From the IMG/VR virus record IMGVR_UViG_3300042195_000088, positions 1 through 61,628 of that record: DNA of 61,628 bases; one strand, 5' to 3'. Each line of letters starts with the position of its first letter. Positions within the stretch are counted from its first letter, which is position 1. This document shows positions 27,269 to 31,754 of the stretch, in pieces. A program made the position numbers and the translations under genes. The DNA comes from a virus (Duplodnaviria; Caudoviricetes). A model generated the notes under the pieces. It saw only the letters and a list, made by a program, of their open reading frames with translations, did not search any database and was not told where the DNA came from.

Positions 27269-27613
27269 TCACTTTATTCTTCCCGCAACGCCAAGCAGGA
27301 TTGTCTCGATCCGCGAAATGGACTCCTCCATTGACGCGAGACGCGAGACCACTTCGGCAGAGATCTCAGGCGAGGATTTCTCAGTGCCGGAAAGACGAGC
27401 GATCTCTTTACCAGGAATAAAGGTTCGACCGCCTTCACGAATCACTATGATCTGTTCAGCGTTCATCATTTTGTACAGCGTCGCGTGGCTTGTGCGCAGA
27501 TATAGACAGGCCTCGTTGATGGTGTATCGCTGCACGAGATCCAATGGCGGCACTGCTGGAATGGTCGACGCTGGTTTTCTTGAACCACGTTTACTCGCGC
27601 TCACGATGACCAT
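27269..27613 (-). CDS. Excisionase-like HTH DNA-binding protein
   Basis: YTINEACLYLRTSHATLYKMM...GGRTFI motif. Confidence 0.75.
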   Translation of the reverse strand: MVIVSASKRGSRKPASTIPAVPPLDLVQRYTINEACLYLRTSHATLYKMMNAEQIIVIREGGRTFIPGKEIARLSGTEKSSPEISAEVVSRLASMEESISRIETILLGVAGRIK

Positions 27614-28401: not shown

Positions 28402-28625
28402 GGTTTCTCCTGAGCTACTGATGCGCTGTCGGGTTGTGGATTGTTAAGAGACGCAAGGCTGATCGCGTTGCTCACGATCTCTTCGAGGTAGTAGCCGGAA
28501 CCGCCTACCAGCGAGATGGACTGCTCGCGTTCTACCTTCCCGTCGCACTCTCGACGGACGGTCACCGTGAAGCGCGGGTTGTACAGATTAGCCACGAGGT
28601 ACTTCTCCATTGTCATGTAGGTCAC
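28398..28625 (-). CDS. Hypothetical protein, paralog of 27053-27244
   Basis: Shared DGKVEREQS motif. Confidence 0.55.
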   Translation of the reverse strand: MTYMTMEKYLVANLYNPRFTVTVRRECDGKVEREQSISLVGGSGYYLEEIVSNAISLASLNNPQPDSASVAQEKP

Positions 28626-28799
28626 CCCAGCTGCCGCGGCAGGCTCGAGATGCAGTGTCGGGCGGCGTGGGTACGTCGCCCCAGGTACGGCCCACCCGGG
28701 CGTCGCGGATCGTCTTGACGTGGACGCGCCAGATGCGGGACCAGTGCATGTCCGTGAGACCGGAGGTGCGGATAAGTGTCACGCGCGTGGCGTTCAGGC

Positions 28800-29468
28800 T
28801 CATACGAGGTGTTTCCATGTATGACCCATACGGGCAGCGATCACGGCGCCTGTAGAGCAGCCAAAGCGACGCGCCCATTCTCTGAGAGTCACATCAGGAT
28901 TGCTGCGTATTTCGCGAACCCTCTCGGGCGTCAACTTGCGTATGCCAGAACCTGTCTCGGCTGGCGACGTACCGTGCTTGAAGCGATCCGCCTGATTGCC
29001 CACCGCGGTATCCCATCGCAGGTTGCTCAATCGACTGTCGGCGCCGTTGCCATTGTTGTGGCAGCCTTCGTGCGCAGGTGAAGGGCGCGGGCCAACGAAA
29101 GCCTCCAGCACCATCACATGAATCGCGATATGGCCGCGGCGCTCCTTGTCCCTCACCTTTACGACGCGATAGCCGCCCTCCATTGGCATGCCGATGCAGA
29201 GGCGGCCGGTCTGGTGCAATGAGTACACGCGTCCCATGTTCGAAACGCGGTAGTACTTCTCCCAGCCAACTACGTGGCGCCAATCTTCGCCGGGCAGCAC
29301 GAACTTCCCAGGCTCGAAAGGCGCCGCTGGCTGTGGCTTCTTCCATCCGCGCCGTTGGAGCGGGCGGCACGCATCACAGAACCGGGCGCGCAACGGCAGG
29401 GGATCGGCGAGTGCTGCACCGCAGCGGTGACAGTGAGGGTGTCGACGTCTGCGCGCTGACGCCGTCAT
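28800..29468 (-). CDS. NUMOD4/HNH homing-type endonuclease
   Basis: EDWRHVVGWEKYYRVSNMGRV (NUMOD4) and HVMVLEAFVGP...CHNNG...NLRWDT..N (HNH). Confidence 0.88.
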   Translation of the reverse strand: MTASARRRRHPHCHRCGAALADPLPLRARFCDACRPLQRRGWKKPQPAAPFEPGKFVLPGEDWRHVVGWEKYYRVSNMGRVYSLHQTGRLCIGMPMEGGYRVVKVRDKERRGHIAIHVMVLEAFVGPRPSPAHEGCHNNGNGADSRLSNLRWDTAVGNQADRFKHGTSPAETGSGIRKLTPERVREIRSNPDVTLREWARRFGCSTGAVIAARMGHTWKHLV

Positions 29469-29469
29469 G

Positions 29470-29670
29470 CGGCCCTCCAAAATCCAGCGCTACGTGATTG
29501 ATTGCGTTCGCACGTGATAGCACGTATTGATACGATCCGGCAGACGCTAGAATTGGCGTAACTACATGACGGAGCAGGCGAAAGTGCGGATACTCTTTGT
29601 GTGCCTCGGCAGCAGATGTGGCACGCGTAAGTAGCTGATTCCACTGACGCTCTCCACAAACTCTCCATTT
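29470..29670. other. Candidate attP with replacement 5' end of a host LMW protein-tyrosine phosphatase gene
   Basis: Lower-GC gap 650 bp past int; IHF consensus match (minus strand AATCAGCTACTTA, 29628-29640); tandem CTCTCCA repeats (29650-29667); mini-ORF 29566-29634 MTEQAKVRILFVCLG. Confidence 0.7.
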
Positions 29671-30091
29671 AGCACTCACTATCCGCGGCCGACTGTATGG
29701 CCCGCAGGGCTGCCTTCAAGGCCGGTCCGCGCATTGACTCCAGTGGTACCTCACTTCGGTCCCAGCGTGGCATCTTGTTGTACTTGGGCTGAAATTTTCT
29801 GATGTACCTCGATTCAAGCGGAGTGAGTTCGGAGCGCTTGCACGTCAGGGTGAAGTAGCGATCGAATTGCATCTTTCCCTTGCATACGTGGTCGTATAGG
29901 CGCGCCCACAGGTTGATCGATTGGCCGACATAGACGACCTGCCCTTCGTCCAACAGGAAGTAGATGCCCGGCGTGCGCTTCTGCCTGACGATTGCGCCTG
30001 CCGCGATCTGGTCGAGTTCCAATAGCTCGTAGCTTTTCGGTGGAGGCGGGAGATCGGGAAGTTGCCGGACTCGCTGGAATGGCTTTCTCAT
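29669..30091 (-). CDS. GIY-YIG domain protein
   Basis: GIYFLL...VVYVGQSINLWARLYDH...LESRYIRKFQPKYN. Confidence 0.85.
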   Translation of the reverse strand: MRKPFQRVRQLPDLPPPPKSYELLELDQIAAGAIVRQKRTPGIYFLLDEGQVVYVGQSINLWARLYDHVCKGKMQFDRYFTLTCKRSELTPLESRYIRKFQPKYNKMPRWDRSEVPLESMRGPALKAALRAIQSAADSEC

Positions 30092-30279
30092 GAGCGCTCC
30101 AGCCGGTCGCCGTCCTCTTTTATGAGCCACTTCACGGCGTACACCACCATGGTGGGCACCTCCGTCTCGGCTGACACATAGCGCCGCATCGTGCGCTCGT
30201 TGATCTCCAGCACTCTTGCAGCGCGCCGCTGAGAGACGCCACCACGCTCTAAGAGCCTTCTGAAACTTGGGCCTTTCAT
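30088..30279 (-). CDS. Small XRE-like HTH regulator
   Basis: GVSQRRAARVLEINERTMRRYVS. Confidence 0.8.
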   Translation of the reverse strand: MKGPSFRRLLERGGVSQRRAARVLEINERTMRRYVSAETEVPTMVVYAVKWLIKEDGDRLERS

Positions 30280-30286
30280 ATCGCAT

Positions 30287-30322
30287 AGTGTAGGGCATAC
30301 AACCCTAGGGCGTAAAGCCCTA
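30287..30322 (-). promoter_or_regulatory. Promoter/operator of the small HTH gene
   Basis: Two overlapping inverted repeats TAGGGCATACAACCCTA and TAGGGCGTAAAGCCCTA; -10-like TACACT 7 nt before the ATG. Confidence 0.6.
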
Positions 30323-31435
30323 TACAGGCACCTTGATTCGCACCCAGTCGAGCCCGCGGTCGTCGTGGTACATGGCCGTCGTTTCGGGGTCGGTGTGGCC
30401 CAGCAGCTCCTGTGTATCGACCCCACCCTGGGCCGCATACAGACGCTCTGAGAGGCTGCGGATCTCATGGAAGGTCGGCGGGTCACGGTCGCCCCAGTCG
30501 AGCTTCGGGGCCGCTACGGCCTCGCCAAAGCGGCGGGAGAGGGTATCGATCCAGATGCGCTGGCCGACGGGGCTGTTCCCCCGGGCTACGGTCTGGTGGA
30601 TGAGGTGCTTGCTCACGATGCCTGTTCGGCGGCACTGGCCGACCACATCGCCGAGAGACATACCGAACGCCTTTAGGCGGAGGTCCAGTGGGATACGGAT
30701 TCGATGCCGCTTCGGCCCCTTCTTAGAAGCCTGCGCGCACCACCAATCCCCGTCACGGAAGTCCTTGAATTGCGCATTGACCACGTCTTCTCGGCGCTGA
30801 CCGGAGACCAAAGCCAACGCCATGGCGTTTCGCAGCCAGACAAGGTCGGTCGCGTGGTAGAGCTGCATGAAGACTTCGAACGACAGGCGCGAGCGCTTCA
30901 CCTCGACGGATACCGGTAGCTTCGTGTCGAGCACCGGGTTCTCTGCGACGTACCAGCCCTGCACTCGAGCTTCGCGGAAGGAGTCGCGCATGTAGTTGCG
31001 CAGCGCCTGGGCGGTGCGCGCCTTGCCTTCGCCCTCAGCCAGCGCCGTCAACCCTTCTGAAATCGTCAAAGCCGTGACGTTTTGCAGAGGGGTCTCGGCC
31101 TTCAGCATCGATACCATGCGCTTGCCGAGGCTCTTGTACGTGCGCAGGGTGTTGGCAGCGAAGTCGGCCTTATTGAGCATGGCCTGATACTTCTCGTTCC
31201 ACTTCTCGACGCTGCGGTCGGCGGTGCCCGTCAGCCGATCGATGAGGCGCGGACGCCCGGCGAGACCCGCGCAATGGATGTTGGCTTCGACGGCCTGAGC
31301 GAATGCCGCCGCGCGATCTCGGCCAATCCCATGCTCTACGCCGGTCTCGGGATGACGCCACGAGTAATAGCCGTCCCGCTCATAGAGGTTTGTCGGCCAT
31401 CCCCGCTTCGATTTACTGCGCTGTCTGGGACTCAC
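30320..31435 (-). CDS. int: Tyrosine integrase, lambda Int-like
   Basis: Arm-binding N-terminus (PTNLYERDGYYSWRHP), SGQRRED (R), FHEIRSL (HxxR) and LLGH...TAMY. GTG start at 31435 is inferred. Confidence 0.95.
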   Translation of the reverse strand: MSPRQRSKSKRGWPTNLYERDGYYSWRHPETGVEHGIGRDRAAAFAQAVEANIHCAGLAGRPRLIDRLTGTADRSVEKWNEKYQAMLNKADFAANTLRTYKSLGKRMVSMLKAETPLQNVTALTISEGLTALAEGEGKARTAQALRNYMRDSFREARVQGWYVAENPVLDTKLPVSVEVKRSRLSFEVFMQLYHATDLVWLRNAMALALVSGQRREDVVNAQFKDFRDGDWWCAQASKKGPKRHRIRIPLDLRLKAFGMSLGDVVGQCRRTGIVSKHLIHQTVARGNSPVGQRIWIDTLSRRFGEAVAAPKLDWGDRDPPTFHEIRSLSERLYAAQGGVDTQELLGHTDPETTAMYHDDRGLDWVRIKVPV

Positions 31436-31676
31436 GGTACACCCTGGCGTATGACGGGTCTGAGGGATCGATGTAGCGGGCGTTCTCGGCAACGTAGTAG
31501 GTGCGGCCGTACTTGCGCGGAACCGGCAGAATGCGAGCCTGGCGTGCCCAGCGGCGGAGTGTCCCGATGGTGGGCGCATGCTCGCCGAAACGTGCGCTCG
31601 CCCACGCGTCCAACGGGATCTCCTTTTCAGCGGTTTTCGCGTGTGTTTGCATGTTTCGCATTGTGGGCAGATTCAT
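31413..31676 (-). CDS. xis: Excisionase
   Basis: IPLDAWA...PTIGTLRRWARQARILPVPRKYGRTYYV, lambda Xis-like, overlapping the int start. Confidence 0.88.
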   Translation of the reverse strand: MNLPTMRNMQTHAKTAEKEIPLDAWASARFGEHAPTIGTLRRWARQARILPVPRKYGRTYYVAENARYIDPSDPSYARVYRESQTAQ

Positions 31677-31754
31677 AAGCCACGCAAGATTCCGCTGGAA
31701 TTCGCGGATGTGATGAGGCTGTGAGTCACTGCGCGCCGTCCATCTACAAGCGCG

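What the first reader, a model, noticed from the sequence alone, without database searches (positions are those of the whole stretch)
29470..29670. Candidate attP carries a promoter and replacement N-terminus of a host LMW tyrosine phosphatase
Seen: in a lower-GC gap downstream of int, a plus-strand mini-ORF (29566-29634) reads MTEQAKVRILFVCLG-SRCGTRK*, preceded by TTGATA...TAGAAT (29527-29553, short 15-nt spacer) and flanked by an IHF-consensus site and tandem CTCTCCA arm-like repeats. Established: ILFVCLGNICRS is the N-terminal catalytic P-loop (CX5R) of low-molecular-weight protein tyrosine phosphatases and their ArsC-type relatives, and some integrative elements restore the genes they interrupt. 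Inference: the phage crosses over inside the active-site codons (core near TGCCTCGGCA, 29602-29611) of a host ptpA/wzb-like gene and rebuilds it under a phage promoter. Lysogeny would then rewire a phosphatase family often linked to capsule/EPS control, potentially the phage's own receptor. I do not know of this integration target being described.
Basis: partly seen in the sequence, partly recalled or inferred. Interest (0 to 1): 0.88.

Follow-up and report, generated by a model that had tools for sequence, protein, structure and literature searches.

The report
Phage attachment site rebuilding a phosphatase gene
The short gap beside this phage's integrase gene is its chromosomal attachment site, and it carries a spare start and first 15 codons of a bacterial tyrosine-phosphatase gene, so the gene the phage cuts on integration stays whole; the trick is known, but I found no paper describing this target gene.

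Summary

- **What is there.** The mini-ORF at 29566-29634 lies in a roughly 210-bp attP of a lambda-type integrase phage.
- **Close phages.** Three related free phages (integrase 66-79% identical) keep the same architecture. Each has its own ATG and N-terminus running into [IV]L[FM]VCLG, then diverges.
- **Lysogens.** In 4 of 5 bacterial genomes with 50-64% related integrases, a truncated host-native phosphatase start and an intact LMW-PTP gene with a new, element-supplied start lie on one contig. They flank the integrase-bearing element (2.2-57 kb). The fifth is cut by a contig end.
- **Codon pattern.** The supplied codons vary at third positions and never at second positions.
- **Target.** In 4 of those 5 genomes it is the ptp gene after kdsB (with lpxK in 3), not a capsule wzb.

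Not shown: the promoter (suboptimal 15-nt spacer, not conserved), exact IHF sites, any capsule or receptor link, and this phage's own host attB.

Replacing a gene's 5' end on integration is known from dusA islands. I found no paper on this target, but this scan noted it three times before on other DNA.

The parts
30320..31435 (-). Lambda-type tyrosine integrase (371 aa, GTG start)
   Evidence: Pfam Arm-DNA-bind_1 (2.9e-12) and Phage_integrase (4.8e-12). The 371-aa form matches all homologues. Best named phages are HK022/434-type at 37-38% identity.
29669..30298 (-). GIY-YIG domain ORF between int and attP (context, not part of the site)
   Evidence: Pfam GIY-YIG 2.6e-05. Absent in L002, where attP follows the int stop directly.
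29470..29680 (.). attP region (P arm, core, P' arm)
   Evidence: Aligns at 70% mean column identity with the region just after int in L002, L098 and L099. GC 0.52 against 0.60 for the window.
29473..29479 (+). P-arm copy of the arm-type repeat (CCCTCCA)
   Evidence: Partly conserved in alignment A2.
29491..29518 (.). Conserved P-arm block: ACGTGAT direct repeat (29492-29498, 29512-29518) and a one-mismatch IHF-like site (29491-29503, minus strand)
   Evidence: Repeat family D3, IHF-like match, nearly invariant columns in A2. Function inferred (accessory-protein binding).
29527..29553 (+). Promoter-like TTGATA-15 nt-TAGAAT (unverified)
   Evidence: Read. The 16-18-nt-spacer scan finds no site. 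My own 15-19-nt scan: 8 of 300 shuffles reach its score. The second hexamer is CAGAAC, CAGAAA or CAAAAG in relatives.
29566..29610 (+). Phage-supplied replacement start: ATG plus 14 codons, MTEQAKVRILFVCLG, including the catalytic Cys codon (29602-29604)
   Evidence: Across 12 element-supplied 5' ends, variable columns at codon positions 1/2/3 are 5/0/7 of 7.
29596..29618 (+). Core region: 23 nt identical to L002. By homology with lysogen junctions, the inferred attP/attB identity ends at 29611 (GGCA|GCAGATG)
   Evidence: 23-nt identical run; the junctions of G001, G002, G004 and G005 fall right after GGCA, GGGAA or GGCAA. Crossover position in this phage is inferred, not observed.
29611..29634 (+). 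Out-of-gene tail of the mini-ORF (SRCGTRK*). It would end the truncated host stub at the int-proximal junction
   Evidence: Analogous short tails follow the stubs in lysogens.
29650..29667 (+). P'-arm tandem arm-type repeats CTCTCCA x2, 11 nt apart
   Evidence: CTCCAC columns are invariant in A2. Analogous tandem repeats follow int in relatives.
28800..29480 (-). NUMOD4/HNH endonuclease-like ORF abutting the P arm (context)
   Evidence: Pfam NUMOD4 3.6e-08. HNH_3 4.7e-04, below its cut-off.
27269..27613 (-). HTH_17 ORF, candidate excisionase or regulator (context)
   Evidence: Pfam HTH_17 3.2e-08. Role inferred, not tested.

Best explanation
**What it is.** The gap 29470-29680 is the attP of a temperate phage with a lambda-type (arm-binding) tyrosine integrase.

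**Layout.**
- The core lies in the codons for the start of the catalytic P-loop (Cys-Leu-Gly-Asn) of a bacterial LMW-PTP gene.
- On the P-arm side the phage carries its own ATG and 14 further codons, MTEQAKVRILFVCLG, in frame with the core.

**What integration would do.**
- The host's own start and first codons are left as a dead stub next to int, ending in the phage tail SRCGTRK*.
- At the far prophage end the phage-coded start is fused to the rest of the host gene, so an intact phosphatase is rebuilt.
- The catalytic Cys is then phage-coded and the Arg host-coded.

**Shown.**
- The anatomy in the window.
- Its conservation in related free phages.
- The stub / element / rebuilt-gene arrangement in related lysogens.
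- The coding-type conservation of the supplied codons.

**Inferred.**
- That this particular phage uses the same target and crossover point.
- That TTGATA-15-TAGAAT drives the rebuilt gene.
- That the CTCTCCA/CCCTCCA repeats bind the integrase arm domain.
For: 1. The integrase has Arm-DNA-bind_1 and Phage_integrase domains.
2. In L002 (integrase 78-79% identical) the homologous region sits directly after the int stop. It carries MKYRILFVCLGSRC..., a 23-nt run identical to the window (29596-29618) and the same arm repeats. L098 (68%) and L099 (66%) have the same layout with different N-termini.
3. Lysogens, 5 genomes searched for PF01451. In 4, the stub and an intact LMWPc gene lie on the same contig and strand, with int between them.
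   - G001: 56,987 nt apart.
   - G004: 37,571 nt apart.
   - G002: 8,169 nt apart.
   - G005: 2,182 nt apart.
   - Identical runs at both junctions are 10, 28, 18 and 11 nt. All end at GGCA, GGGAA or GGCAA, after which attL reads phage-like GCAGA.../GCAAA... (TACAC... in G005) and attR reads A(A)YATCTG....
4. In a relative of G001 without the element (L191), kdsB-like DNA runs straight into an uninterrupted ptp starting MTRILFICMGNICRSP. The G001 stub starts MTRILMICMG, while its intact gene starts MNYKVKMRILMVCMGN.
5. Across 12 element-supplied 5' ends, the 7 codons before the junction vary at 5/0/7 of 7 columns for codon positions 1/2/3.
6. A [hydrophobic]x4-C-[LM]-G motif lies within 400 nt after int in 20 of 54 loci, while only 25 such hits occur in all 798,726 nt of those loci.
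7. In the integrase tree, the window falls in a 27-row clade (SH-aLRT 91). Twenty of the 27 carry the stub, counting the window at 710 nt and L021 at 1.8 kb.
8. The rebuilt G001 protein matches LMWPc positions 1-143 of 144 at 121.5 bits.
Against: - No attB or lysogen of this phage or its closest clade (integrase at least 66% identical) was seen. All four members are free-phage forms.
- The exact 25-mer spanning the stub has 0 matches in 185,579 species genomes and 0 in the viral collection.
- The 18-nt expected-attB pattern had no exact match in 401 Burkholderiales genomes.
- Seven of 27 clade members show no stub: L003, L101, L103, L105 and L037, plus L102 and L107, which have under 500 nt of flank. 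L105 has a homologous P' region but a different core.
- The one sequencing run that holds the phage shows a single contig across the site and no junction forms.
- Promoter:
  - The standard scan finds none.
  - The -10-like hexamer is not conserved.
  - The attR upstream regions of 4 lysogens give no better promoter match than shuffles: 265, 299, 45 and 284 of 300 shuffles reach their score.
Confidence: 0.88

Rival explanations
1. **Passive relic.** The phosphatase fragment is host DNA captured once by imprecise excision. It marks the site but has no role in keeping the gene working, so the hybrid gene is non-functional or irrelevant.
For: - The promoter is unconvincing, and most supplied starts lack an obvious ribosome-binding site by eye.
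- L099 carries a longer phosphatase-like stretch (SICRSQIAAEF) past the core, as expected of captured gene DNA.
Against: - All 12 element-supplied starts keep an ATG in frame, and the codon-position variation is 5/0/7.
- The four hybrid genes are open, with full or contig-limited LMWPc matches.
- The N-termini differ between elements (MTEQAKVR, MKYR, MNNKRKVR, MR, MNYKVKMR...) while the frame is kept.
Confidence: 0.06
2. **Broken phage gene.** The phage once carried its own LMW-PTP gene, and the flanking homing-endonuclease-type genes (GIY-YIG, HNH) destroyed it, leaving only the first codons.
For: The gap is flanked by a GIY-YIG ORF and a NUMOD4/HNH ORF.
Against: - L002 has neither endonuclease gene yet has the same stub, cut at the same point, directly after int.
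- No continuation of the phosphatase frame exists in the window: the motif scan finds one hit only.
- Lysogens of relatives show the site is an integration junction.
Confidence: 0.02
3. **Chance resemblance.** The real attP lies elsewhere, for example upstream of int, and targets a tRNA or another gene.
For: None beyond the lack of a directly observed attB.
Against: - The strict motif appears in 0 of 200 shuffles.
- Position and architecture are conserved next to int in relatives.
- 20 of 27 clade members carry the stub.
Confidence: 0.02

Closest known systems
dusA-associated integrases and their islands/prophages (Farrugia et al. 2015, PMC4482086; abstract and section 18 read)
   Same: - Tyrosine-recombinase elements that insert in the 5' end of a conserved protein gene and replace that 5' end with element-supplied sequence.
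- Putative promoters were proposed upstream of the rebuilt gene.
- One integrase family is tied to one conserved target across many Proteobacteria.
   Different: - The target is dusA, not an LMW-PTP gene.
- There the replaced part is a structural beta strand, and the paper states it holds no known cofactor- or tRNA-binding residue. Here the junction splits the catalytic CX5R loop.
- This integrase has a lambda Arm-DNA-binding domain. Kinship to the dusA integrases was not tested.
Phage lambda / HK022 / 434 Int-attP system
   Same: - Integrase with an N-terminal arm-binding domain and a C-terminal catalytic domain. HK022- and 434-type integrases are the best named matches.
- attP of roughly 200 bp next to int, with tandem arm-type repeats on the int-proximal side and a further copy on the other arm. 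The comparison with lambda's arm layout is from my own knowledge.
   Different: - Only 37-38% identical.
- Lambda's attB is intergenic, whereas here the core is inside a coding sequence and the P arm encodes a replacement N-terminus.
- Arm-site binding, IHF and Xis dependence are untested.
Lactobacillus crispatus prophage PhiM247, whose attL-attB includes 96 nt of the msrA 5' end (PMC10763512; passages read)
   Same: A prophage attachment site overlapping the 5' end of a protein-coding gene, with similar but non-identical attP/attR and attB/attL versions.
   Different: Different host phylum, target gene and integrase. The passages I read make no statement about a rebuilt catalytic motif.
Earlier notes of this scan on other DNA (e1-128489, e1-5188742, e1-4840262)
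   Same: They describe mobile elements inserted in the start of a tyrosine-phosphatase gene that carry a replacement front end. One notes the split P-loop.
   Different: They are unchecked AI notes on other genomes (a 54-kb prophage, Ruminococcus cassettes, a 9.5-kb satellite-like element). I did not test them. Here the free-phage attP form is seen, and an integrase clade is tied to the target.
Phage 21 / e14 integration in icd with a replacement 3' end (recalled from memory; no call)
   Same: An intragenic attB where the phage carries a substitute gene end, so the gene stays functional.
   Different: The 3' end is replaced there, so no start codon or promoter has to be supplied.

Membership tests
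Lambda-type (arm-binding) tyrosine integrase with complex attP | Integrase with an N-terminal arm-DNA-binding domain and a tyrosine-recombinase catalytic domain | tested here: met
   Pfam PF09003 2.9e-12 and PF00589 4.8e-12. Invariant R214, H323, R326, H347 and Y356 in the 40-sequence alignment.
Lambda-type (arm-binding) tyrosine integrase with complex attP | attP adjacent to int, with repeated arm-type sites on both sides of a core | tested here: met
   CTCTCCA x2 at 29650-29667 and CCCTCCA at 29473-29479. Conserved in 4 aligned attPs. In L002 the site abuts the int stop. Binding itself was not tested.
Lambda-type (arm-binding) tyrosine integrase with complex attP | Core identical to a bacterial attB, giving direct repeats at prophage ends | tested here: inconclusive
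   - Met in relatives, with 10-28-nt identical runs at both junctions in 4 genomes.
- Not found for this phage: 0 exact 25-mers and 0 exact 18-mers in 401 genomes.
Lambda-type (arm-binding) tyrosine integrase with complex attP | IHF sites and an excisionase | tested here: inconclusive
   Only one-mismatch IHF-like sites, and 34 of 200 shuffles do as well. An HTH_17 ORF at 27269-27613 is a candidate Xis only.
Target-restoring intragenic integration (5'-end replacement type, as for dusA islands) | The element carries an in-frame substitute for the displaced gene end | tested here: met
   ATG plus 14 codons ending in the conserved [IV]L[FM]VC[LM]G. Codon-position variation is 5/0/7.
Target-restoring intragenic integration (5'-end replacement type, as for dusA islands) | Lysogens hold a truncated native end at one junction and an intact hybrid gene at the other | tested here: met
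   Seen in 4 of 5 related lysogen genomes. An empty site in a relative has the native start. Seen in relatives only, not for this phage.
Target-restoring intragenic integration (5'-end replacement type, as for dusA islands) | The element supplies a working promoter for the rebuilt gene | tested here: inconclusive
   TTGATA-15-TAGAAT is present. The standard scan finds 0 sites. It is not conserved in relatives.
dusA-associated integrase family (sequence membership) | Sequence kinship of the integrase to the DAI family | not tested
   No DAI sequence was compared. Only the mechanism is likened.
LMW-PTP (Pfam LMWPc, PF01451): is the mini-ORF itself a phosphatase? | Complete P-loop C-X5-R and a domain of about 140 residues | tested here: not met
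   The mini-ORF has 22 codons. After C-L-G it reads S-R-C-G-T-R-K*, so Arg is not at C+6. It is a gene fragment. Full LMWPc matches occur only in the rebuilt host genes of relatives.

The most novel reading that the evidence does not exclude
A broad clade of lambda-type integrases, in Proteobacteria and perhaps beyond, has specialised on the P-loop codons of LMW-PTP genes. In every lysogen the catalytic Cys would then be virus-coded and the Arg host-coded. Integration also cuts ptp out of the lpxK-kdsB envelope operon and puts it behind phage DNA. Lysogeny would therefore change how much of this phosphatase is made, a hidden form of lysogenic conversion tied to cell-envelope biogenesis.
Probability: 0.2. 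Interest if true: 0.65.

Novelty: new member of a known kind. Interest (0 to 1): 0.45.

Why it matters
- **A recurrent target I found no paper on.** It adds a prophage target, the start of the LMW-PTP gene (mostly the one after lpxK-kdsB), and an integrase clade tied to it. This helps annotate prophage ends and the many phosphatase-like mini-ORFs next to integrases.
- **A split active site.** The junction cuts the active-site loop, so lysogens make a chimeric enzyme whose nucleophile comes from the phage. This gives a clean natural case for asking how tolerant the N-terminus of these phosphatases is.
- **Possible change in expression.** It also lets one ask whether separating ptp from its operon alters its expression.
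- **The mechanism itself is not new.** A replacement gene end carried in attP is established.

Tried and rejected
- **Direct DNA searches.**
  - The exact 25-mer across the stub gave 0 hits in genome contigs and 0 in viral contigs.
  - blastn of 28500-31700 against named phages gave no match.
- **Context of the closest integrases.** I used the search for related loci instead.
- **Sequencing runs.** Only one run holds the phage. It is a sediment metagenome and possibly the source. Its one contig spans the site, with no loose ends or joints, so it says nothing either way about integration.
- **Host attB hunt.**
  - The 18-nt expected-attB pattern with up to 1 mismatch, in 401 Burkholderiales genomes, gave 0 exact matches and 15 one-mismatch places in 14 genomes.
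  - Of the 10 places that became loci, only L184 is an LMW-PTP start. It shares 13 nt, GTGTGCCTCGGCA, with the window. It is not next to kdsB.
  - The other 9 are chance matches in other frames. Five places were not examined.
  - The host therefore remains unknown.
- **Motif counting.**
  - My first regex required a Met within 15 codons. It gave 13 of 78 genome loci, against a background of 35 hits in 1.28 Mb.
  - It undercounted stubs with GTG/TTG starts or CC before the Cys, and gave one false positive by eye (L103).
  - For one search I passed 46 of the 88 loci. The 42 dropped rows were IMG/VR records that end within about 10 nt after int.
  - The labels used in the tree statistics were the undercounting ones. 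I rely on the recount, not on the printed change counts.
- **Downstream essential gene.** I checked whether an essential gene follows ptp. The neighbours differ (P-type ATPase, UvrC, RNase E on the other strand), so I dropped the idea.
- **Literature.**
  - Seven searches found no description of an LMW-PTP gene as a phage or island attachment site.
  - The listed hits I opened (PMC10763512, PMC5446998, PMC3835674; passages only) mention the phosphatase in unrelated contexts.
  - The library lacks most subscription journals, and supplements were closed, so this is not proof of absence.

Full report
**What the window is.** The window is a 61,628-bp viral contig, classed linear and about 81% complete. 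On the minus strand it carries:
- a tyrosine integrase at 30320-31435, with a lambda Arm-DNA-binding domain and a Phage_integrase domain. All homologues are about 371 aa;
- a GIY-YIG domain ORF at 29669-30298;
- the 188-nt gap of the finding;
- a NUMOD4/HNH ORF at 28800-29480;
- further on, an HTH_17 ORF at 27269-27613.

Because int sits mid-contig, this is a free-phage form and not a provirus cut at its ends.

**Observation.**
- The mini-ORF 29566-29634 reads MTEQAKVRILFVCLGSRCGTRK*.
- TTGATA (29527-29532) and TAGAAT (29548-29553) are 15 nt apart.
- CTCTCCA stands twice at 29650-29656 and 29661-29667, and a CCCTCCA copy lies at 29473-29479.
- The gap has GC 0.52 against 0.60 for the window.
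- A strict version of the phosphatase-start motif occurs once in six frames and in 0 of 200 shuffles.
- Correction 1: the IHF sites fit the consensus only with one mismatch each, and that is not unusual (34 of 200 shuffles).
- Correction 2: the GIY-YIG ORF separates int from the gap.

**Related free phages.**
- The closest viral contig, L002 (integrase 78-79% identical), has no GIY-YIG gene. Its int stop is followed at once by a homologous region with three parts:
  - tandem GGAGrG-type arm repeats;
  - a mini-ORF, MKYRILFVCLGSRCSTWNCLI*, on the strand converging on int;
  - the same ACGTGATTGAT and CACGT...ACGTATTG blocks.
- A 23-nt run, TTTGTGTGCCTCGGCAGCAGATG (window 29596-29618), is identical in the two phages.
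- L098 (68%) and L099 (66%) have the same layout, with MNNKRKVRILMVCLGS... and MRVLFVCLGSICRSQ....
- So four diverged phages keep an ATG, a short and variable N-terminus, and the conserved hydrophobic run ending Cys-Leu-Gly. The P' side diverges after that.

**Related integrated elements.**
- A scan of one genome per species with an integrase alignment returned 78 loci. The best are 50-55% identical over the full length.
- Just after int, many carry a phosphatase start.
- I searched five of these genomes for PF01451 and fetched the junctions.
- In four genomes, a truncated start and an intact LMWPc gene lie on the same contig and strand, with the integrase-bearing element between them:

| Genome | Distance between stub and intact gene |
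|---|---|
| G001 | 56,987 nt |
| G004 | 37,571 nt |
| G002 | 8,169 nt (truncated int) |
| G005 | 2,182 nt (truncated int) |

- The fifth (G003) is cut by the contig end.
- The two junctions share identical runs of 10, 28, 18 and 11 nt. All end at GGCA, GGGAA or GGCAA.
  - After the run, the int-proximal junction continues with phage-like sequence: GCAGA... in G001 and G004, GCAAA... in G002, TACAC... in G005.
  - The distal junction continues with A(A)YATCTGYCG..., that is Asn-Ile-Cys-Arg-Ser.
- By homology the window's junction is GGCA|GCAGATG, ending at 29611.

**Which copy is native.**
- Upstream of the int-proximal stub lies GC-rich host DNA.
  - It encodes a CTP_transf_3 cytidylyltransferase (KdsB type) in 4 of the 5 lysogen genomes scanned: L004, L058, L005 and L038.
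  - LpxK precedes it in L004, L005 and L038.
  - L010 has a Ser/Thr kinase instead.
- Upstream of the intact gene lies lower-GC element DNA.
- In a relative of G001 without the element (L191), kdsB-like DNA runs straight into an uninterrupted gene starting MTRILFICMGNICRSP.
  - The G001 stub starts MTRILMICMG.
  - The G001 intact gene starts MNYKVKMRILMVCMGN.
  - Of the five relatives' loci viewed, three (L191, L193, L195) show such an uninterrupted gene and two show none within the locus.
- The direction of replacement is therefore clear. The element supplies the new start, and the host's start is left behind.
- The rebuilt G001 protein matches LMWPc positions 1-143 of 144.

**Is the supplied piece coding or just a recognition site?** Across 12 element-supplied starts, the seven codons before the junction vary at 5, 0 and 7 of 7 columns for codon positions 1, 2 and 3. 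All 12 keep an in-frame ATG. This is the pattern of a protein-coding constraint.

**How tightly the integrase clade is tied to this target.**
- With a motif that needs no Met, 20 of 54 loci have the stub within 400 nt after int. Only 25 hits occur in all 798,726 nt of those loci.
- In a quick maximum-likelihood tree of 55 integrases, the window sits in a 27-row clade (SH-aLRT 91).
- Twenty of the 27 carry the stub, counting the window (710 nt from int because of the GIY-YIG ORF) and L021 (1.8 kb).
- Seven do not: L003, L101, L103, L105 and L037, plus L102 and L107 with short flanks. L105 has a homologous P' region with a different core.
- A 17-row Oxalobacteraceae clade has none.
- In L006, L008, L039, L020 and L080 the site is inverted relative to int. 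In L006, L008, L039 and L080 the full gene follows int on the same strand. L020 has only a stub there.

**What is not shown.**
- *This phage's own host.*
  - No attB or lysogen of this phage was found.
  - One Burkholderiales LMW-PTP start shares 13 nt with the core but lies in another context.
  - The host is unknown. Relatives point to Proteobacteria, and one integrase homologue bears a Terriglobia label.
- *Promoter.*
  - The standard scan finds none.
  - My relaxed scan ranks TTGATA-15-TAGAAT above 292 of 300 shuffles.
  - The -10-like hexamer is not conserved in the three sister attPs.
  - The upstream regions of four rebuilt genes have no good match.
- *Capsule, EPS or receptor link.* Nothing supports it. 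The target in relatives is mostly the ptp after lpxK-kdsB, and its downstream neighbours vary.

**Comparison and novelty.**
- Replacing a gene's 5' end on integration is established for dusA-specific islands and prophages (PMC4482086, abstract and section 18).
- A 5'-end attB is also reported for PhiM247 in msrA (PMC10763512, passages).
- The integrase and attP architecture are lambda-like, with HK022/434-type integrases at 37-38% identity.
- Seven literature searches found no description of an LMW-PTP gene as an attachment site. The library is limited and supplements were closed.
- This scan has noted the same kind of insertion three times before on other DNA. I did not test those notes.
- I class this as a new member of a known kind. 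It is tidy, recurrent and useful for annotation, with one appealing detail: the active-site loop is split between phage-coded and host-coded halves.

**Verdict.**
- Confidence that this is an attP targeting an LMW-PTP 5' end with a replacement start is 0.88.
- The promoter and any physiological rewiring remain open.
- Interest is 0.45.

Noticed in passing
window 29669-30298 (-) and 28800-29480 (-): A GIY-YIG ORF and a NUMOD4/HNH ORF sit on either side of attP. L002 lacks both: its attP abuts the int stop, and by eye a second tyrosine-recombinase-like ORF (L002 7411-8256) follows. The attP flanks look like a landing place for selfish or extra genes.
   Followed up: partly
window 27269-27613 (-): An HTH_17 ORF (Pfam 3.2e-08) lies about 2 kb from attP. 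It is a candidate excisionase or AlpA-type regulator.
   Followed up: no
L010 (G002 16.8-25.0 kb) and L038 (G005 24.5-26.7 kb): Decayed elements of 8.2 kb and 2.2 kb with truncated integrases are still flanked by the native stub and the rebuilt gene. In these genomes the element-supplied N-terminus appears to have become a fixed part of the host gene.
   Followed up: partly
L006, L008, L039, L080, L020 (just after int): The att site is inverted relative to int. In L006, L008, L039 and L080 the element-supplied start and the full phosphatase gene follow int on the same strand. L020 has only a stub (GTG start) there. L006, L008 and L039 are similar (L006 and L039 nearly identical) up to the P-loop codons and diverge after them.
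   Followed up: partly
L105 5090-5300: An integrase 53% identical to the window's has a homologous P' region (TCCACGTGGAAC) but a different core with no phosphatase start. This may be a switch of target within the clade.
   Followed up: no
L009 (Anaerolineaceae MAG) and P0064 (Terriglobia MAG label): Integrases of this clade, with a stub in L009, appear in bins labelled Chloroflexota and Acidobacteriota. This is either a wider host range or mis-binned phage contigs.
   Followed up: no
L099 5117-5330: The attP-borne fragment continues past the junction as SICRSQIAAEF, so it still resembles the phosphatase. The P' side may also derive from a captured gene copy.
   Followed up: no
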